Part shown: in pieces, positions 46,401 through 64,000 of the stretch
Position numbering within the stretch: position 1 is the stretch's first letter
How the letters are laid out: each line of letters opens with the position of its first letter
IMG/VR virus record: IMGVR_UViG_3300023174_003623
Span: 90,778-154,777 of that record
Direction: 5' to 3' (one strand)
DNA length: 64,000 nt
From: a virus
The notes under the pieces: model-generated
The model's database searches: none
The model's input: only the letters and a program-made list of their open reading frames with translations
Told to the model about the DNA's origin: nothing
Made by a program: the position numbers and the translations under genes

Positions 46401-49204
46401 AGATAACATGAAATACTACACCTACTGTGAGCCAACCAGTACCGAGGACATGACACCGCTGTATATCACTCTAAGTGAAGAAGAGATTCTAAAAGAATAT
46501 TGGGACTATTGGTATGGTCGGATGTGCGCCAAGTTTGGTCAAAAGCATGTTGATGCGAACTATAGCACTAAAGAATGTATAGAAGACTGGTGCGTGGTGC
46601 ATTGGGCAGAGGAGAGTGAGTGATGAGTGAGATAATCGACCTTAATAAAGCATTCTTGAAATACTTTAACGAATCAGAAGGATTTTCATTAAGATCTGAA
46701 AGATTCTATGATGATGTTAGGTCGATTCTAACAAATCCAGCGTTATCCTCGGCAAGTAGAAATAAACTGATGCGTGGTTGGCTTGAGGCTGCATTCATTC
46801 AAGGTGCAAGGACTATGGCACAGGATACTCTAGACACGCTTGGTGATTATGCCACAGCTGTTGCTGGAATTGATGAAAAAGTATATAATAGATCTGAAGC
46901 ATTTGATGCTGCTAGAGATAATCTTATGACATACTTCACACAGGTACTAAACGGAGAAACAGAATGAATGCAGAAGAAGACCTTAAAAAACTAAGGCGAT
47001 TATTAAAAGAGTTCTTTCAGATGCTGGATAGTACAGAAGAGAGCGACAGCGGAAGAATCTTTAAACCAATCCAAATATCTAGTTGTCGCGCTTTGATGAT
47101 CAAACCTTTAAATAAATTGTTGAACGATCTTAGAAAAGAAGCAATGAGGGAGATTGAAGAATGAGCCCTGAACTAGATAAACGACTATGCGAAGACTTTC
47201 CTAAAATCTTTGCACAAAGAAACGGATCGCCTAAAGAAACTGCATTTGCATTTGGTTTCGAATGCGGTGATGGGTGGTACGATATTATATCCACACTATG
47301 TGCTGTGATTCAGAATCAAATTAAGTATACTCCTGATATTCCTGAAGTCGTTGCTCTTCAGGTCAAAGAAAAATATGGAACACTTAGATTTTATATCTAT
47401 GGTGGTAATGACTATACTGATGGAATGATTGCAATGGCTGAATCTATGAGCGCAAAGATCTGTGAACTCTGCGGTAACAAAGGCAAGGTCATTGAAGATA
47501 ATGGTTGGTTGAAGACTCGGTGTAACACTTGCCATCGTGTTGAAGAGGTTGGACAAGAATAAAGTTGTTTACTTATTTTAATTTATAGATTATAATTGAC
47601 TTATAAATTGAAACGAGGATCTTACGATGTACACTACAAAAGTTACTTGGCTCGGCACCGAATATGGTTGCCGAGTGTTCAAGGACGGTGAACTGATCCT
47701 TGAAGGATGGGCTTCTTCTCGGGAGCTTATTGGTGCAACTTTCCGCGATTTGCTCCGCACCATTGACAAGTGCGGTGAGGGCGACAGCTTTACTTCTGCT
47801 GCTCGTCATCGTAATAGCAAAGAAGGAAATCTTTGCATCGGTGTGAAACACATTTGGCATTAAGGAGGAAGAAATGAATGACCGAATTCTAGAATTGGCT
47901 GTACGGGCTGAGTTATATGTTGATTGGAATGGAAGACCGTATCCTCGGGCAATGAGTGCTGAGGAATGCAGGGCAGCCTATGCAAAGTTTGCTGAACTCA
48001 TTATCGCTGATACACGCGAGGCTTGTGCTAAGATTTGCGATTCTTATGCTGAAAACCAGAAATCTTGGTCTACCGGAGAAGATAGTGCTGAAGAATATCG
48101 AGAGCAAGCGGCAAATGAACTCGCCGATACAATCCGTGAAAGTTGGAATATATGAGACCACAAGAAATCAATCGTAACATTGATTTAGCTTTCAAACGGT
48201 TTGCTCGTGATGGCAATCTAATTCATTTTCAGAAGTGTAAGAATCATCTGGAAAAACGATTAGAATGGTTTCGTAAGACTGAACCAGAATTAGATTTTGG
48301 TTTTACAAATTATATGTATTGTTTTAAAGATGAGTATAACGAAGAAGACATAAAGCATCATTTAAGTTATATCTCTGACCGATGGAATTGCCCCGGTCGC
48401 ATTAACTTTATGCTTGAAGTGATTAACCGAGGAATTTGATATGAAAGATGATATTGTAAGTCTTATAGGTTTTCTAGGTGGCATAGTAGTTACTGTTTGT
48501 TTGCTTATTGCACTTTGCCCGGATTCATTCACGCAAGCAGAAGATGCCCTAAAACAATGTGAAAAATCTTTACCTAGAGATCAAAAATGTATGATAATTG
48601 CAATTCCAGAGGATAAAAAGTGAAAAAGATTAAATCAGAATTGACGCTCGAAGAAGCATGGGGCATGAACGGGCTGATGGCAACTTCCGCTTTTCGTTAC
48701 TGCCTCGGGCGAATGACTTACATCGTTGGCGAATGTGCTGATTGGCTTATCGCTAACTGGGATAAGTTTCCGCCTAGTGTCAGGTCTCTTATTGAACGAG
48801 AACTTGAAGAAGAATTTGGAAATGATGACAGGGAACGGATGCACAATCCACAAGGCATGTGGAAGCCTCTCGGGCACGATTGCGACCGCAAAGAATGGGA
48901 ACGAGTAAGAAAGCTTTGGAATAAAAAAGAAGACTATGATGATGAAACCACAGGATGTTGATGAGCTTATGTCTGCTTTCATTCGATATGAGAAAGCACT
49001 GACTCATCTTCCTTTTGAATCTCTTTTAACAAGAGAAGAGATGGAAGAAGCTGAACTAATAATGCAACAACAGTTTGCATACGAAGAATAGACCACTACC
49101 ACACTTCCCCCCAGATGTCAATAGAAAAGAATTTCTTTTTACCTGTTGACATCTTTTTTTGATTCTGTATAATGCCTCTCATCGAAACGAAACAGGAGAT
49201 GGAA

Positions 49205-57931: not shown

Positions 57932-60900
57932 ATGAAAACTCTTCGCGATATCAACAAAGCTCTGAAACCGCATAACGTCAGGCTTAACAAGGGTAGTTGC
58001 TACATGTACATGACTTACGATACCAATGTGTCGTTTGAATCCAAAAGCTTCTATGGCAGTCATTTCGCCAGCCTTTCGCCTGAGCGTTGGGTGGAAGAGG
58101 GGATTGACTTTGCTGATAGGTGTTTCCTTAAAGTTAGGGAGAATGACTAATGAACGCATTTGCTGAAGAACTCTATCAACAGGAACTGATTGACAGACGC
58201 TGCGAAGTGCTTGAGAATAGGCTTCGAGACCTGAAGAAGTCGATACAGTCTCTGCCGCCTAATGGAATGGAAATTCTGATTGAAATGAAGCAGTTACATA
58301 ACGAACTGCTAGAACTCTATAGTCGAGTCTAAAGGAGAACAATATGCGTAAAAGCAAAATGACCAAGCTTATCATCAAAGCCGGAGAACTGGCTAGCAAG
58401 TATAACGACGCTGAACTCGACCGCATTCTTGAAGATGCTCTACTTCACTTCTCTGAACTTGATGCCCTTGTTTATGGTATTGAGCTTGAACTTGAGAAGT
58501 ATACCGAAAGTGAAGACGCCGATTGTGGGTATGAGTGCTCGATTTAGAAAGGAGAACGATATGCTGAATATCAATCACACTGTTCGCGCTTACACTGGTA
58601 AAAGGGGATGCATGTGCGGCTGCCTTGGTCAGTACAAGGATAGTGAGCGCGTTCGTAAGCTTGCAATCACTCAGCTTCTCAAAGACCCTGACGTTGAGTT
58701 TGATACTTGGGCCGAGGAAGGTTGCCTTTCGGTGACCACTGCAACTCGTACCCGTGTCCTTTACCTGAACAGTGAAGGGGTTGACATCGTGCGTAAGATG
58801 GGTATTCGAGAGAATCAAGTCTACGGATAAAGTAGTTGACGACCATCCGGGGAGTAGGTTACACTGCTCCCCGTTGACCCCTTACCACTCTGGAGGCTTT
58901 CATGTTTATTGCCATTTGCCTTCTCGCCGCTTTTGCCGTTGCCTGTGGCGTGTATATCATGGTCGAACTGGAAAAACAATATAAAATCGAGCGGGAAAAC
59001 ATTCACGGTGATGATTGTTAAACCGCTTGACGCACTGCTCGAACTAGGCTACACTGCTCCCCGTTGTCCGATTCATCATCTGGAGGCTCTCATGGCTAAA
59101 GTTTACGTCACCACTCAGAACTACGAGAACTACGCTTGGAACGAAGACGGTTCGCTCGGCACTGGCGTCGATGCGTACTGGAAGGCGAAGGGCGGCTCGG
59201 ACTACTTTATCACCATTCCCGTTGGCACTCGCTGGGAGAACATGGGCGACGTTGCCAAGGCTCTCGTGGAGGCTCACCGTCAGGATATTGAGTGCGATAA
59301 CGATGCCTTTCGGTCGAACATTATCGGCTGGGAAATTGTTGACGACCACTACTTGACAGACTACGAACAGTCACAACTGCGCTACGAAGGCTACATTCAG
59401 TTCTCTACCACAGTGCTTGCTTAAACTGCTTGACGACCATCCGGGGAGTAGGTTACACTGCTCCCCGTTGACCCACTCACCACTCTGGAGGCTTTTCATG
59501 AAGTACCGCGCAATCGTTAATGGCGTTTCGTTCTACACCACTACCCGTGCGATTCAGAACGGGGTTGGCGACTTCACTAAAATCAACGACGCCCTTCGCA
59601 TGGCAATGGTCGAGTTGGATAAGCTTGCTAAAGACGGCGCGATTGGTTTCGCTGGCACTTGGAACGGTTGCCAGATTCAGCTTACCAAAATTCCAAAGGC
59701 TGCATAAACCGCTTGACGACCATCCGGGGAGTAGGTTACACTGCTCCCCGTTGACCCACTCACCACTCTGGAGGTTCTGCATGGAAATCGACTTCAACCG
59801 TAAGTCCCTTGACACCTTGCTGCAAGTGTTCACCGCTGGCCCTTTTGGCCCTTGCCTTGCCTTTCGCTCCTACTACCAGATTCCTGTAAACGAAGCCATT
59901 GTTACTGAAGACGTTGAGAACTTCGCCATGGCTTTCATGACTGCCGCTAATCGCGTCTATCCGGAGACTTTTTAACGATGAAACTACGCTCTGATTTTAA
60001 GACCGAAAAAGCGTATCTGAAGTACCTTGACGCCCAGCTAAAGTATTGGGCAGACACTCAAAAAGAGCACGACGAGGCTCAGGCTGACCTCGCTCGTCGC
60101 CGTGAACTTGACAATCACTATCAGGCTGTCGAACGCCGAAACGATGAATGGTTTCGCTGGTATATGAAAAACGTCAACGGAAAGTAGTTGACAACCCGCA
60201 CCAGTGCTGCGATACTGCACTCCGTTGACCCACTACCACTCTGGAGGCTCTCATGGAACTGTTCAGCAAAGTCAAAGGCTATGCGACCCGTGATGGTGCG
60301 ATTAAGAAGCTGGCAAAGGAACTGCCAGACTACCACAATTACCGCTGGATGATTGTCTCGCTGCCGTCTGGCCGCTTCTCGCCTGCGGTCAGAACTGTCG
60401 GCACTGATATCTGCGGCGCTCTGGCTCATCGGGACGTTGGCGAATTCTAAACCGCTTGCAAGCTTGCCGGGAGTAGGTTACACTGCTCCCCGTTGACCCA
60501 CTACCACTCTGGAGGCTCTGCATGAAAAAGTCCAAACCCGTCTTCGAAGTCACCATGCGTTCGCCCAAGGCTGGCGAGTACTTCAACTCCCGCCTGACCC
60601 GTCGCGACGTTTCCAGCCGCCTGTACTCTGCTGCCGACGTTCGCCTTGTTCAGAACCTTATCGACTCGCTCGACAAGGGCACGACCGTCGCTAGCATCAC
60701 GGTTGCCGACGACACCTACTCCGTTCGCTTGGTCGCCTAACCTACTGAATTTCGGAGGATTTAGCATGAACTTCGCCCAGCACCCCGTGACCCGCCTGTT
60801 CTGGAATGGTAAGACTTTCGCGGCGACTTTCGCGACTGCCACTCCCCTGACCCGTGACGCTGCCCGCTTCCTTGCGTGGCTGCACAATGCCCTGACCATC

Positions 60901-61131
60901 ACCGTCACGATTGACGGCTAAACGGAGGCCTATACGATGAACGACACCCAACTGTCTACTGCTCTGCTGACCCGCCGCCTCGACAACCTGAAGGCTGAGG
61001 CGGCAATGTACCCAGCCCTGAAGTTCTGGGCTTCTATCGGGCGGCTGCAAATCGATGCAGTGTACGTCCAGCTTGATGAATTGCACGGCGAAACTACTGC
61101 CGAGGCTCTGGCCGCCCGCGCAGGCTATTAA
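57932..61131 (+). other. Cassette ORFs of unknown function (57932-58150, 58150-58332, 58344-58547, 58561-58830, 58902-59021, 59092-59424, 59498-59707, 59781-59975, 59978-60187, 60253-60450, 60522-60740, 60766-60921, 60937-61131)
   Basis: Starts defined by the GGAG(G) RBS within or after each repeat. Confidence 0.75.
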
Positions 61132-61200
61132 CCGCTTGCAAGGTTCGCGGGAGTGTGAGACAATACTCCCCGTTGACCCCTTACCACTCTGGAGTACGCC

Positions 61201-62118
61201 ATGACCAACCGCACCGATGCTCACCGCCCGTCTGCCCTCGTCGCGACCGACTACGAATTCGTGGAGTTCTGCTCGGCCCGCGAATTCGAGGTCTACGACC
61301 TCGCCCCCCGTGGAGAGGCTGGCGGCTACTTTAAGCACCAGAAGATGACCGGCGGCACTTGGTACGCTGGCGGCGAGCAGTTCTGCCGCTGCGATATCTG
61401 TGGCACGACCCGCGCTCTGGACTTCGCCATTTTTTGGCATAAGCCCAGCAACGTGTACGTTCGCACGGGCGGCGACTGCGCGACTCGAGTGTGCGACTTG
61501 CTCGAAGTCGAAGGCTTTCAGGCTTTCCGCGACGCCGCCCGTGCCAAGTCGGTGCGCCTTGCTGGCGAAGCCGTCGCCGAGGCTGCTCTGGCTGCGAAAG
61601 GCATCGACCTCGACTTCGCTGCACTGCGTCAGGCCTCCCGCGAGCTTCACGGCATCAAGACCGGCGGCACTCCCCGCGAGCAGTGGACTGTCTCTACCGC
61701 TCTGGATATCGCTGGCAAGTTCGCCAAGTACGGCAACATGTCCGAAAAGCAGGAAAAGTTTCTCGTGAGCCTGCTGGACTCCGTTGCCCGTCGCGACGAA
61801 GTCCGCGCCCTGTGGGCTGCTCGTCACGCTGAGCGCGTCGCGACTAGCATGCACCTCGGCACGGTTGGTGACCGCATCGAACTCACCGTGACCGTCAAGT
61901 TCGCCAATTCCTACGAGTCCAATTTCGGCCAGTTCTGGATTGTCGGACTCGAAGACGCCTCTGCCAACACCGTGATTTACAAGGGGAATTCGCCCTTCAG
62001 CACGACCAAGGGCGAGGTCGTCAAACTCAAGGCGACGGTGAAAGAACACGGCGAACGCAATGGCGTCAAGCAGACCGTGATTGCCCGTCCGAAAGTGCTG
62101 GAAGTCGCCGCCGCTTAA
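61201..62118 (+). CDS. Protein with N-terminal Cys motifs and probable C-terminal OB-fold
   Basis: CRCDICG...GGDC; GTVGDRIELTVTV...LKATVKEH...QTVIARPK. Confidence 0.65.
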   Translation: MTNRTDAHRPSALVATDYEFVEFCSAREFEVYDLAPRGEAGGYFKHQKMTGGTWYAGGEQFCRCDICGTTRALDFAIFWHKPSNVYVRTGGDCATRVCDLLEVEGFQAFRDAARAKSVRLAGEAVAEAALAAKGIDLDFAALRQASRELHGIKTGGTPREQWTVSTALDIAGKFAKYGNMSEKQEKFLVSLLDSVARRDEVRALWAARHAERVATSMHLGTVGDRIELTVTVKFANSYESNFGQFWIVGLEDASANTVIYKGNSPFSTTKGEVVKLKATVKEHGERNGVKQTVIARPKVLEVAAA

Positions 62119-62191
62119 ACCGTTTGCAAGGTTCAAAATAGGGGAGTAAACTGCTCCCCGTTGACCCCTTAACACTCTGGAGTACGCGCAA

Positions 62192-62707
62192 ATGACGACC
62201 ACCACCTTCGACCTCGCCGTTGCCATTGAAAACATGAACACCGCTATCGACTCTGCCGCCCGCTGCGCCCGTGAAGCCCTTGAATCGACTCTGGCTTTCA
62301 GCGACCGCACTTTTAGCACCGCAGTCCGCGCCGAACAGCTCATCTCGATAACCGCTAACTTGCGCGGTGCTGCTGAACAGGCCGAAACCAATCCCGTAAA
62401 GGCTGCTGAACTCGCCTTTCTTAGCACCGCTCGCGCCACTGATATCGCCGACTTGGTTGAAGGTATTGTCGGCGTTGAAGGTGACGTAGTGGACACCGCG
62501 CAGAATTGCTTTGAAGTCGCCACTGCCGCTCAGGGGATTGCCTACGCTGCCCAAAAAGTATGGGAAGTTGCTGATGCTGTCGCCGCTGAAGGTGAGTCCG
62601 ACGCCGACTTCTCGAAGGTTGTTGCATATCGACGCGACTTTGCAACTTGCCTGCGCCGCGCCTCAACTGCTCGCCACAACCTTTATCTGATATCCCGCGA
62701 CCTCTAA
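62192..62707 (+). CDS. Ala-rich helical hypothetical protein
   Basis: Last cassette ORF, followed by a terminator. Confidence 0.7.
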   Translation: MTTTTFDLAVAIENMNTAIDSAARCAREALESTLAFSDRTFSTAVRAEQLISITANLRGAAEQAETNPVKAAELAFLSTARATDIADLVEGIVGVEGDVVDTAQNCFEVATAAQGIAYAAQKVWEVADAVAAEGESDADFSKVVAYRRDFATCLRRASTARHNLYLISRDL

Positions 62708-62726
62708 TTCCCCCCACTCCCCTCAC

Positions 62727-62757
62727 AAGCCTGCCCTAACCCGGCAGGCTTTTTTTT
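62727..62757 (+). terminator. Intrinsic terminator closing the cassette array
   Basis: AAGCCTGCC/GGCAGGCTT stem plus T8. Confidence 0.9.
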
Positions 62758-62804
62758 GTCTGTCTTTTCAATGCCTTACACCAATAACCCTGCATTTCGG
62801 CACC

Positions 62805-63138
62805 TTTCACCACTCTAGACCCTGCTCAATCATATTACTTTCAAGCCTTTTTTCGTAAGCCATTGATTTCATTATACTTTATCATTTAACTGGTACTTTG
62901 ATGACACTTGTAACTATCTGATTCATAAGGACTTTTTTTATCAACTTTCCCTATAGACTGATTAAAACCCTAGCCGCTCATTCTCGCCTTTCACTCACTC
63001 GCCTGCTCGTTTTCTCGGATTTCACCACTCTAGACCCTGCTCGCCGATATTACTTTCAAGCCTTTTTTACTAAGTGTCTGTTTTTCATGCTGTTTTTCTT
63101 TTAACTGGTACTTTGATGACATTCGCAAGTGTCTGATT
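62805..63138. repeat. ~120-bp imperfect direct repeat (62805-62923, 63020-63138) with IHF-like sites
   Basis: 215-bp offset; TAAGCCATTGATT at 62856 matches YAANNNNTTGATW. Confidence 0.75.
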
Positions 63139-63293
63139 TTATTACGCTTTTTCGGTTGCTCTGCTGCTCTGCCCGTTGTCTGGCATGCTTTCAGGGGAAT
63201 GCTCGCAGGCACCTCGCAGGCTTACGTTAACGTCAGGGTCGAACTATGGGGAAACCTAGCAAATGCCTGTCAGACGCTTGCAGGGGTTTAGGG

Positions 63294-63818
63294 CGCATAC
63301 CACACAAACACCTCAAAAGTCAAGCATTATTTTCTGCCAGACGCTCAAATGCTCGTTTATATCATGTTTTTTAGGGCCAGTCAACCACTTTTGCTCGACG
63401 CTCAAATGCTCGCTTATAACACACCTCGCAGGGCTTGTCAAACGCTCGACGCTTAACCTATACGTCAACTTTCAATCCCTCGACGCTCGACGCTTGACAT
63501 TTACGTTAAGGTCAACTTTGAAACGCTTGACGCTTGACGCTTGACGCTTGACGCTTGACGCTTGACGCTTGACGCTTGCCTCTAACACACATTGCAGCAC
63601 ATGTCAAGCCCCCCCATGCAGAACAGCGCATATACCACAACACGCGAGAACATGCAAGCACCTGCCAGACACCGCAAAGGCCAGCGCATACCACACAAGC
63701 CAGCACATGTCAAGCACTGCGAGAAACATGCAAAACACCTGCACATACCACATTACGAGCAGCATGTCAAGCACCTGTGAGACACCTCCCAATACCACAA
63801 AAGCACATCACATGTCAA
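63294..63818 (-). promoter_or_regulatory. Array of eight leftward sigma70-like elements
   Basis: TTGACA/TTGACT/TTGCAT-N17/18-TAxxxx with TG extension. Confidence 0.65.
63524..63578 (+). repeat. Heptamer tandem repeat (CGCTTGA)7 plus partial copy
   Basis: Directly visible. Confidence 0.95.
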
Positions 63819-63841
63819 GCAATATATTTTCGCGCAGGGTA

Positions 63842-63871
63842 TTGACAGGGGTGGGCTGGGCATGCTATACT
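63842..63871 (+). promoter_or_regulatory. Rightward sigma70-like promoter followed by a G11 tract
   Basis: TTGACA-N18-TATACT; G run 63875-63885. Confidence 0.65.
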
Positions 63872-64000
63872 ATCGGGGGGGGGGGTACTTAAAAGTTTTT
63901 GCAGTTTTCGATCTGGTTCCATGGCGGCTAGCATCCCACCCCTATAAGCACCGTAGAAAAAGATTGCCATGGGTCTCAAAAAAATTCGCCAGTAAAAAAA

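What the first reader, a model, noticed from the sequence alone, without database searches (positions are those of the whole stretch)
63294..63818. Eight leftward promoter-like elements that all lack the -7 T and face no gene
Seen on the minus strand: TTGACT-18-TATGCG (63294-63323), TTGACT-17-TATAAA (63356-63384), TTGACA-17-TATAAG (63413-63441), TTGACA-17-TAGAGG (63579-63607), TTGCAT-17-TATATG (63629-63657), TTGACA-17-TATGCG (63685-63713), TTGACA-17-TATGTG (63742-63770), TTGACA-18-TATTGG (63789-63818). All have an extended -10 TG and the initial TA, but none has the last T, whereas the rightward cassette promoters do. No credible minus-strand ORF follows. Known: T-7 is important for open-complex formation, and -7T-less promoters depend on CarD in some alphaproteobacteria. 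Inference: an RNA-polymerase loading or sponge zone, factor-dependent promoters for origin priming, or a transcription-driven DNA entry device.
Basis: partly seen in the sequence, partly recalled or inferred. Interest (0 to 1): 0.75.

Follow-up and report, generated by a model that had tools for sequence, protein, structure and literature searches.

The report
Leftward promoter-like repeat array in phage control region
A T4-like lake phage keeps a conserved array of eight leftward-facing RNA-polymerase recognition sites, all lacking the usual last T, in its main gene-free control region, where they most likely drive non-coding transcription rather than act as a polymerase sponge.

Summary
All eight minus-strand sites lie at the stated coordinates. 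Each has a -35 box, a 17-18 bp spacer, an extended -10 TG and a TA start, and none ends in T. The pattern occurs 11 times in the window against 0.87 expected, and 7 of those hits lie here.

The window is the end of a 155-kb T4-like myovirus contig that closes on itself. The array therefore sits in a roughly 1.4-kb gene-free gap between the last early cassette and the first gene.

Nine further versions from other metagenome assemblies carry the same array. Across 73 sites the last base is G 72 times, A once and T never. The -35, TG and TA positions are almost invariant, whereas spacers vary at 24% of columns (p = 2e-4). Repeat units are gained and lost with the spacing kept.

The array is therefore selected for polymerase recognition and is not mere duplication. 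A missing -7T does not show inactivity, because an extended -10 compensated for it in the one published mutant test (PMC7703639).

My best reading is real leftward non-coding promoters in an early-control or origin-like region, by analogy with T4 oriE, oriF and oriG. The purpose is inferred. The DNA-entry idea is refuted and the sponge idea is unsupported.

This is a new variant of a known kind, of moderate interest.

The parts
63789..63818 (-). Element 1: TTGACA-18-TGG-TATTGG
   Evidence: In relatives a 26-bp segment is present here. The window's deletion joins this -35 box to the neighbouring -10 box at an 18-bp spacing.
63742..63770 (-). Element 2: TTGACA-17-TGG-TATGTG
63685..63713 (-). Element 3: TTGACA-17-TGG-TATGCG
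63629..63657 (-). Element 4: TTGCAT-17-TGG-TATATG, with a degenerate -35 box
   Evidence: It is identical in all ten versions.
63579..63607 (-). Element 5: TTGACA-17-TGT-TAGAGG. Its initial transcribed region would be the heptamer array.
   Evidence: It reads TAAGGG in the L125 clade.
63413..63441 (-). Element 6: TTGACA-17-TGT-TATAAG
63356..63384 (-). Element 7: TTGACT-17-TGA-TATAAA
   Evidence: It reads TATAAG in all relatives, which is the only change seen at the '-7' position (A/G).
63294..63323 (-). Element 8: TTGACT-18-TGG-TATGCG
63523..63578 (+). Heptamer tandem repeat (ACGCTTG x8, that is GCTTGAC on the plus strand), between the left and right groups of elements
   Evidence: TRF score 112. 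The copy number is 8 in the window and 2-3 in relatives.
63453..63545 (.). Two 46-47-bp direct repeats (ACGTCAACTTT... plus degenerate heptamers)
   Evidence: family D6. One copy is absent in the L125 clade.
62805..63138 (.). Two 119-nt direct repeats (62805-62923 and 63020-63138). They are locally AT-rich (28-33% GC) and hold strongly conserved sequence blocks. They lie downstream of the leftward sites.
   Evidence: No convincing minus-strand RNA structure was found (-7.3 kcal/mol, one covarying pair).
62727..62751 (+). Intrinsic terminator that ends the rightward early-cassette series and marks the left edge of the gene-free gap
   Evidence: It is conserved in L125 and L132.
63842..63871 (+). 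Strong rightward promoter TTGACA-18-TGC-TATACT, back-to-back with element 1 (-35 boxes 24 bp apart)
   Evidence: It reads TATAAT in relatives.
63872..64000 (+). Highly conserved untranslated leader or small-RNA candidate. It begins with a run of 8-13 G and continues into genome bases 149-240.
   Evidence: In the predicted fold the G-run pairs with CCCACCCC. No Rfam family matched.
49093..49121 (-). Solitary ninth site of the same style (TTGACA-17-TGG-TAGTGG, G at '-7'), back-to-back with the cassette promoter at 49146

Best explanation
The eight elements are a conserved, fast-rearranging array of sigma-70-type recognition sites for host RNA polymerase holoenzyme. Each has a -35 box, a 17-18 bp spacer, an extended -10 TG and T-12/A-11. 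All point leftward, away from every neighbouring gene.

They lie in the roughly 1.4-kb non-coding region between the terminator of the last early cassette and the first gene of a circularly mapping T4-like freshwater myovirus.

Shown: the sites are real, clustered far beyond chance, and conserved in nine other assemblies. Selection falls on the polymerase-contact positions and on the spacing, not on the rest of the repeat.

Inferred: they work as extended -10 promoters, with the TG motif making up for the missing T at -7. G at -7 and C at -6, together with the GC-rich sequence that follows, should give high-affinity but slowly and unstably opening complexes. These would fire G+T-rich non-coding RNA leftward into a repeat-rich stretch that holds two locally AT-rich 119-nt repeats.

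The most likely purpose is service to an origin or early-control region. Leftward transcripts could act as primers or R-loops, or as divergent transcription that opens or supercoils the adjacent strong rightward promoter. This follows the way T4 oriE, oriF and oriG depend on promoter transcripts.

My confidence that these are selected polymerase-recognition sites is about 0.7. My confidence in the origin or early-control purpose is about 0.3. The overall figure is given below.
For: Sites verified at the stated coordinates. Pattern count is 11 against 0.87 expected, with 7 hits in this stretch.

The circular junction and the gene-free gap are shown by the end/start overlap and by contigs L125 and L132, which span it.

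Ten versions were compared, from several metagenome assemblies (ENA GROS21 and MEHR18 samples, one JGI contig, Logan runs). Every full version has 7-8 strict sites, and the last hexamer base is G 72, A 1, T 0.

Variable alignment columns are: -35 box 3/48 (all three from one duplication misalignment), TG 0/16, TA 0/16, spacers 29/122, between elements 36/206. Fisher's test gives p = 1.8e-4.

Two subfamilies with unrelated spacers keep the same geometry. A 26-bp deletion in the window and a 47-bp unit gain in L135 both leave 17-18 bp spacing.

An extended -10 compensated for a missing -7T in the R. sphaeroides rrnB mutant (PMC7703639).

A back-to-back pair of the same design occurs in relative L127, whose flanking-gene homologue is 57% identical. 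It has CATGTCAA ... TTGACA, with a leftward TGA-TATAAG and a rightward TATAAT, and there it faces real minus-strand genes.

The cultured relative Melnitz has three tandem leftward extended -10 promoters in a similar gap, next to a rightward promoter.

T4 origins use promoter transcripts plus an AT-rich unwinding element (oriF, oriG) or an early promoter plus evenly spaced iterons (oriE). They sit where transcription diverges and the strand bias shifts (PMC3016281).

Here the strand bias switches at about 63810-63830, between the array and the rightward promoter. AT-rich stretches (28-33% GC) lie leftward.
Against: No transcript, start-site or replication data exist for this uncultured phage.

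T at -7 is missing in all copies. For E. coli-type polymerase this is normally very damaging, so activity is assumed and not shown.

All ten versions are close relatives forming two clades, so the number of independent evolutionary events is small.

No minus-strand terminator or structured RNA was found downstream, and no Rfam family matched.

GC-skew support is weak. After detrending, the genome-wide extremes are not at the array. Melnitz shows no skew change at its own array, because skew follows the coding strand.

The AT-rich stretches lie 170-450 bp from the nearest site, further than the T4 oriF unwinding element lies from its promoter.

No origin-binding or MotA-like protein was identified.
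Confidence: 0.45

Rival explanations
1. Iteron-type protein-binding array. Under this reading the conserved words (GCTTGACATG and TGTGGTATnnGC, plus the plus-strand GCTTGAC heptamers) are sites for a phage or host DNA-binding protein, such as an initiator. The likeness to promoters is then incidental.
For: GCTTGAC occurs in both orientations. There are eight tandem plus-strand copies at 63523-63578 and inverted copies inside the elements.

Conservation extends beyond the canonical hexamers. GC before and ATG after the -35 box are conserved, and G and C at hexamer position 6 and the base after it are each present in 7 of 8 copies.

In relatives the rightmost CATGTCAAGCA is invariant although it has no -10 partner there.

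T4 oriE has evenly spaced direct repeats of unknown role (PMC3016281).
Against: The conserved positions coincide exactly with the four holoenzyme contact groups: the consensus -35 box, the 17-18 bp spacing, TG at -15/-14 and TA at -12/-11. This holds in two subfamilies with unrelated spacers, which would be an unlikely coincidence for an unrelated protein.

No candidate binding protein was found next to the array.

Heptamer copy number drifts from 2 to 8 among close relatives.
Confidence: 0.15
2. Antisense or interference promoters. Under this reading, leftward RNA runs into the 3' end of the last rightward cassettes and damps them, or collides with read-through polymerases. The array would then be an insulator between the end and the start of the rightward programme.
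For: The sites converge on the terminator at 62727-62751 and the last cassette genes. No minus-strand terminator lies in between.

The solitary ninth site at 49121-49093 also points into the 3' end of a rightward gene.
Against: The gene that would be targeted is not conserved. L132 lacks the 171-aa gene and L125 carries a different cassette.

About 550 bp of conserved non-coding repeats lie between the array and any gene.

Eight tandem promoters seem excessive for damping one small gene.
Confidence: 0.15
3. Polymerase-holding sites. Under this reading, consensus -35 plus extended -10 give tight closed-complex binding. G at -7 and C at -6 block opening, so polymerase is parked rather than fired.
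For: G at -7 and C at -6 are themselves conserved (7 of 8 paralogues; 72 of 73 sites in relatives), while hexamer positions 3-5 drift.

E. coli 'promoter islands' show that dense promoter-like tracts can bind polymerase and yield only short oligonucleotides (PMC3661553).
Against: The extended -10 element restored activity to a promoter lacking -7T in the only direct test found (PMC7703639).

Eight sites per genome are few compared with the polymerase content of a cell.

Promoter islands are AT-rich, bound by H-NS and irregular, whereas this array is about 50% GC and regularly spaced.

Nothing measured here separates binding from firing.
Confidence: 0.1
4. Functionless expanded repeat. Under this reading a single crippled divergent promoter (T at -7 already lost) was amplified by slippage or unequal recombination in a hyperplastic region, and it persists without any role.
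For: The array is tandem and periodic (57-bp, 47-bp and 7-bp repeats).

Unit number varies among very close relatives.

The shared lack of T can be inherited from one ancestral unit.

Against: Among both paralogues and orthologues the contact positions stay fixed while spacers and inter-unit DNA diverge at 18-24% of columns.

Indels preserve the 17-18 bp spacing.

The gap as a whole is retained in all ten versions, in genomes that are otherwise tightly packed.
Confidence: 0.1

Closest known systems
Extended -10 (TGn) sigma-70 promoters, and the -7T-less promoters of alphaproteobacteria (Henry et al. 2020, PMC7703639)
   Same: They share the consensus -35 box, a 17-18 bp spacer, TG at -15/-14 and T-12/A-11. 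The last hexamer base is not T, as in 57-70% of promoters in the three alphaproteobacteria that paper analysed.
   Different: Here all copies carry an extended -10. In that paper an extended -10 removed CarD dependence. The base at -7 here is specifically G (72 of 73 sites), whereas that paper found no preferred substitute. The host is unknown, and the cultured relatives infect both a CarD-less lineage (OM43) and SAR11. The sites face no gene.
T4 replication origins oriF/oriG (promoter plus downstream unwinding element, R-loop primer) and oriE (early promoter plus evenly spaced iterons); review PMC3016281
   Same: This is also a T4-like phage. The locus combines promoters with direct repeats and locally AT-rich DNA in a non-coding stretch, where transcription would diverge and the strand bias changes sign.
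   Different: There is no sequence homology. No MotA-type promoter or MotA gene was detected. The AT-rich segments are further from the promoters. There are eight tandem promoters rather than one. Replication initiation is untested.
PeSL promoter/stem-loop cassettes of T4-like phages (Arbiol 2010, PMC2839356; Comeau 2014, PMC4122927)
   Same: These are repeated early-type promoter sequences in the hyperplastic part of a T4-like genome, and unit number changes between close relatives.
   Different: The elements here are in the opposite orientation. They have no stem-loop partner and no ORF between copies. They have an extended -10 and no -7T, and they share no homology with the two rightward families beyond the -35 box.
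Three tandem leftward promoters in Methylophilales phage Melnitz (MZ577097.1, 72885-73060), not discussed in its paper (PMC9004378)
   Same: Melnitz is a cultured relative whose genes nearly all lie on one strand. Its array has extended -10 promoters about 75 bp apart in a small gap, pointing against the gene flow and next to a rightward promoter.
   Different: The Melnitz copies end in T (TATAAT). There are three rather than eight, the units are not homologous, and the gap is much smaller.
E. coli 'promoter islands' (Panyukov and Ozoline 2013, PMC3661553)
   Same: Both are dense runs of promoter-like sites that face no normal mRNA.
   Different: Promoter islands are AT-rich, irregular, bound by H-NS and chromosomal. 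This array is periodic, about 50% GC, phage-borne and conserved at specific contact positions.

Membership tests
Sigma-70-type extended -10 promoter | -35 hexamer close to TTGACA | tested here: met
   Five copies read TTGACA, two read TTGACT and one reads TTGCAT. The box is invariant in relatives, apart from one misaligned duplication.
Sigma-70-type extended -10 promoter | Spacer of 17 +/- 1 bp between the hexamers | tested here: met
   Six copies have 17 bp and two have 18 bp. The spacing is kept after a 26-bp deletion and after unit gains.
Sigma-70-type extended -10 promoter | TG at -15/-14 and T-12/A-11 | tested here: met
   Present in 8 of 8 copies here. There are no variable columns among 32 in the ten versions.
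Sigma-70-type extended -10 promoter | T at -7 (last base of the -10 hexamer) | tested here: not met
   G in seven copies and A in one in the window. In relatives the count is G 72, A 1, T 0.
Sigma-70-type extended -10 promoter | A transcript starting 6-9 nt downstream of the hexamer | not testable with these tools
   No expression data are available for this uncultured phage.
CarD-dependent alphaproteobacterial promoter class (PMC7703639) | Lack of -7T without another compensating element, in a host that has CarD | tested here: inconclusive
   The lack of -7T is met. However, all copies have the extended -10, which abolished CarD activation of rrnB. In native promoters the extended -10 did not predict CarD response. 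The host is unknown.
T4 oriF/oriG-type R-loop origin | Promoter followed closely by an AT-rich DNA unwinding element | tested here: inconclusive
   Stretches of 28-33% GC lie at about 62820-62940 and 63030-63120, in surroundings of 50-58% GC. They are 170-450 bp downstream of the leftmost site.
T4 oriF/oriG-type R-loop origin | MotA-dependent middle promoter | tested here: not met
   The elements have a true -35 box rather than a MotA box at -30. Pfam MotCF and AsiA gave no match in the genome, although the control genomes were also silent.
T4 oriF/oriG-type R-loop origin | Initiation of DNA synthesis at the site | not testable with these tools
   GC skew is dominated by the coding strand and is uninformative.
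Iteron-type origin (T4 oriE, plasmid-like) | Cluster of evenly spaced direct repeats | tested here: met
   A 57-bp period over 63628-63786, seven-bp repeats x8 at 63523-63578, and 57-bp and 47-bp pairs.
Iteron-type origin (T4 oriE, plasmid-like) | Cognate repeat-binding initiator encoded nearby | tested here: inconclusive
   The flanking proteins (171, 305 and 295 aa) have no Pfam family, and their PHROG matches are absent or of unknown function.
PeSL cassette | Early promoter joined to a stem-loop and flanking an ORF, in the direction of the genes | tested here: not met
   The elements are in the opposite orientation, have no stem-loop and have no ORF between copies.

The most novel reading that the evidence does not exclude
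The array may be a dedicated polymerase-holding device. Under this reading the sites are high-affinity (consensus -35 plus extended -10), and their conserved G at -7 and C at -6 keep host RNA polymerase from opening DNA unless supercoiling or a factor allows it. A T4-like phage would then use them next to its first early promoter or origin as a loading platform, an insulator or a topological switch.
Probability: 0.12. Interest if true: 0.75.

Novelty: new variant of a known kind. Interest (0 to 1): 0.45.

Why it matters
Control regions and replication origins are essentially uncharted in T4-like phages outside the enterobacterial group, which are abundant in lakes and oceans.

This locus offers a compact, conserved and testable candidate. 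It combines a gene-free hub with a strong rightward promoter and G-run leader, a tandem array of leftward extended -10 sites that never carry T at -7, a heptamer microsatellite made of the -35 word, and two AT-rich repeats.

If the sites fire, they are a natural series showing how far an extended -10 can replace -7T. If they only bind, they would be a phage example of selected non-productive polymerase sites.

Either result would help promoter prediction in uncultured phages. Programs that require -7T miss this whole class, as the consensus scan here did.

Tried and rejected
- BLASTN of the gap against 50,697 phage records gave no match.
- Protein-based locus searches in IMG/VR with the three flanking genes gave nothing, or only a 39%-identity fragment.
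- An exact-pattern scan of IMG/VR for TTGACATG-N9-12-TGTGGTAT gave 120 single, unrelated hits, mostly ordinary promoters that end in T. An exact scan for the leader gave none.
- Rfam on both strands of the whole gap gave only a sub-threshold hit on the terminator.
- A PWM built from the eight sites found no further strong member elsewhere in the genome. A looser pattern found one more site at 49121-49093.
- The minus strand of the 119-nt repeats does not fold convincingly.
- A DnaA-box reading of CATACCACA matches only 5-6 of 9 positions, and the 57-bp spacing is wrong for DnaA. This was judged by eye.
- A MotA-box reading of TGCTT puts the motif about 6 bp out of register, and no MotA or AsiA was detected.
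- A sigma-32 reading fits at -35 (CTTGAC resembles CTTGAA) but the -10 does not fit.
- Cumulative GC skew at first looked like an origin signal, with its minimum at the junction. After detrending, and by comparison with Melnitz, it proved uninformative.
- More distant relatives with 52-57% identity in the flanking gene do not keep the gap next to that gene.
- The host could not be inferred. The capsid protein is about equally close to phages of Stenotrophomonas, OM43, SAR11 and Sinorhizobium.

Full report
**Setting.** The window is bases 90,778-154,777 of a 154,777-bp IMG/VR virus record. Its proteins are those of a T4-like myovirus: tail sheath, portal, major head protein, an SbcC-like (PHROG) nuclease subunit, family-B DNA polymerase and DnaB-like helicase. 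The major head protein is 64-68% identical to those of Stenotrophomonas phage DLP_6, Methylophilales phage Melnitz, Pelagibacter phages Mosig and HTVC008M, and Sinorhizobium phiM12-like phages. Almost all genes lie on the plus strand. G+C rises from about 33% to 50-60% over the last 10 kb.

The last 147 bases of the window match the first 148 bases of the record at 95% identity, and the break falls in a run of G. Two independent metagenome contigs read straight through this junction: L125 (ENA) and L132 (JGI). The map is therefore circular. The finding lies in a gene-free gap of roughly 1.4 kb. The gap runs from the terminator at 62727-62751 to the first gene, at genome bases 333-1220 (295 aa, no known family).

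**The observation.** All eight minus-strand elements are present at the stated coordinates. Seven have TTGAC(A/T) and one has TTGCAT. Spacers are 17 bp (six copies) or 18 bp (two copies). All eight have TG at -15/-14 and TA at -12/-11. None has T at the last hexamer position (G in seven, A in one).

The pattern TTGACW-N14-15-TGNTA occurs 11 times in the window against 0.87 +/- 0.92 in shuffles, and seven of the hits are these sites. Genome-wide, 7 of the 14 minus-strand hits lie in these 525 bp. The rightward cassette promoters end in T and mostly lack the TGn extension. The consensus scan, which requires T at position 6, therefore missed all eight elements.

The sites are repeat copies. Tandem Repeats Finder reports a 57-bp period over 63628-63786 (2.8 copies, 74% matches). 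Elements 6 and 7 form another 57-bp pair. 'Eight of eight without T' is thus not eight independent events.

When the eight copies are aligned on the -10 box, the conserved right half reads TGTGnTATnnGC. G at -7 and C at -6 are each present in 7 of 8 copies, whereas hexamer positions 3-5 are nearly random.

**Coding potential.** No ORF in or to the left of the array survives comparison with relatives. Indels of 4, 8, 10, 20, 26, 35 and 47 nt fall throughout.

**Relatives.** Direct DNA and locus searches failed. The downstream 295-aa protein has many homologues. Its two closest clusters (90-95% identity) led to contigs that carry the gap. One exact-pattern scan of JGI metagenomes gave L132.

Ten full versions of the array were aligned (window, L132, L125, L135-L141; the eleventh locus with a site, L133, is only partial because much of its upstream sequence reads N). 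Every full version has 7-8 strict sites on the minus strand. Over 73 sites the last hexamer base is G 72 times, A once and T never.

Variable alignment columns fall as follows:
- -35 box: 3 of 48, all three caused by a 19-bp duplication in L125
- TG: 0 of 16
- TA: 0 of 16
- hexamer positions 3-5: 2 of 24
- hexamer position 6: 1 of 8
- spacers: 29 of 122
- DNA between elements: 36 of 206 ungapped columns

Contact positions against the rest give p = 1.8e-4 by Fisher's test.

Units come and go. There is an extra 47-bp unit in L135. The window has a 26-bp deletion that fuses one -35 box to the next -10 box at 18 bp. Heptamer copy number ranges from 2 to 8. The versions form only two close clades, so the number of independent events is small. 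Even so, the pattern is what selection for holoenzyme recognition predicts, and it is not what neutral tandem duplication predicts.

**What a missing -7T means.** Only 30-43% of promoters in three alphaproteobacteria have -7T, and CarD activates those that lack it (PMC7703639). The same paper shows that adding an extended -10 to the -7T-less rrnB promoter raised basal activity strongly and abolished CarD activation. In native promoters of that study an extended -10 did not predict CarD response, so this rests on one mutant construct.

All eight elements have an extended -10. A missing T is therefore no evidence that polymerase binds without opening, and it does not show CarD dependence. The host is unknown, and beta- and gammaproteobacteria lack CarD according to that paper's abstract. 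G at -7, C at -6 and the GC-rich sequence that follows suggest short-lived open complexes. That is my inference from general knowledge of discriminator effects and was not tested.

**Surroundings.** Reading from left to right, the gap holds the following features.
- A terminator at 62727-62751.
- Two 119-nt direct repeats (62805-62923 and 63020-63138), which are locally AT-rich (28-33% GC) and contain blocks conserved between both paralogues and orthologues. Their minus strand does not fold convincingly.
- Elements 8, 7 and 6.
- Two 46-47-bp repeats.
- A plus-strand heptamer array, (GCTTGAC)x8, which would be the first transcribed sequence of element 5.
- Elements 5 to 1.
- A near-consensus rightward promoter (63842-63871), 24 bp from element 1 and back-to-back with it. 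Its transcript would start in a run of 8-13 G.
- A leader that is more conserved than anything else in the gap and predicted to pair the G-run with CCCACCCC.

The strand bias changes sign at about 63810-63830. The minus strand is G+T-rich across the array, and the plus strand is G-rich to its right. A ninth site of the same style (TTGACA-17-TGG-TAGTGG) lies at 49121-49093. It is also back-to-back with a rightward promoter, 25 bp away.

**Comparable arrangements elsewhere.** In L127, whose flanking-gene homologue is 57% identical, a back-to-back pair reads CATGTCAA...TTGACA. Its leftward member is TTGACA-16-TGA-TATAAG (no T at -7), and there it points at real minus-strand genes, although a second, T-ending promoter lies closer to them.

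In the cultured phage Melnitz, three leftward extended -10 promoters about 75 bp apart, all TATAAT, sit in a small gap beside a rightward promoter. They point against the gene flow. The Melnitz paper does not discuss them. No cluster of the pattern was found in Mosig, and DLP_6 and phiM12 gave no hit at all.

**Interpretation.** The sites are best read as genuine holoenzyme recognition sites pointing leftward, most likely extended -10 promoters for non-coding RNA. Their place is a repeat-rich, gene-free hub at the head of the rightward programme, next to AT-rich repeats and at a point of divergent transcription. This resembles what is known of T4 origins. In oriF and oriG a promoter transcript forms an R-loop in a downstream unwinding element. 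oriE depends on an early promoter and has evenly spaced direct repeats. T4 origins also tend to lie where transcription diverges and the strand bias shifts (PMC3016281). That analogy is my preferred purpose, but it is inference.

Cumulative GC skew has its raw minimum at the junction. After detrending, however, the extremes move elsewhere, and Melnitz shows no change at its own array. I therefore give skew no weight.

**Rivals.** There are four: an iteron-type protein-binding array, antisense or interference promoters, polymerase-holding sites (of which E. coli promoter islands are a loose precedent; PMC3661553), and a functionless expanded repeat. The DNA-entry idea is excluded by the circular map.

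**Verdict.** This is a new variant of known kinds (extended -10 promoters, and promoter or iteron origin regions of T4-like phages) and not a new category. Interest is moderate.

Noticed in passing
window 63872-64000, continuing in L002 149-240: The strong promoter at 63842-63871 would start its transcript in a run of 8-13 G. A leader of about 100 nt follows and is more conserved than the rest of the gap. In the predicted fold the G-run pairs with CCCACCCC about 55 nt downstream. Phased A-tracts follow, up to the next promoter (L002 241). No Rfam family matched. This is a candidate small RNA or regulatory leader, and the G-run also explains why assemblies break here.
   Followed up: partly
window 63523-63578 and the degenerate copies at 63476-63503: The heptamer array (GCTTGAC)n is a polymer of the -35 word on the plus strand. 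Its copy number is 8 here but 2-3 in close relatives. L132 has a second array of four or more copies.
   Followed up: partly
window 62805-62923 and 63020-63138: Two 119-nt repeats hold blocks that are nearly identical between paralogues and across relatives (TTTCACCACTCTAGACCCTGCTC, ATTACTTTCAAGC, TTTAACTGGTACTTTGATGACA). The one perfect IHF-consensus match (62853-62865) is not conserved in L125 or L132.
   Followed up: partly
window 62192-62707 compared with L132 and L125: The last cassette gene (171 aa) is absent from L132, where the 305-aa gene abuts the terminator. L125 carries a different small gene upstream of a divergent homologue. Cassettes are gained and lost right next to the gap.
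   Followed up: partly
window 49093-49121 (minus strand): A solitary site of the same style (TTGACA-17-TGG-TAGTGG, with a G6 run in the spacer) lies back-to-back with the first 16-bp-spacer cassette promoter at 49146.
   Followed up: no
L146 2386-2561 (Melnitz MZ577097.1, 72885-73060, minus strand): Three tandem leftward consensus extended -10 promoters (TATAAT) lie in a gap where only 90-114-nt ORFs are annotated. They are not mentioned in the phage's paper.
   Followed up: partly
window 58000-64000: GC skew is negative on the plus strand over the last roughly 5 kb, although the genes there are on the plus strand like the rest of the genome. G+C reaches about 60% there.
   Followed up: no
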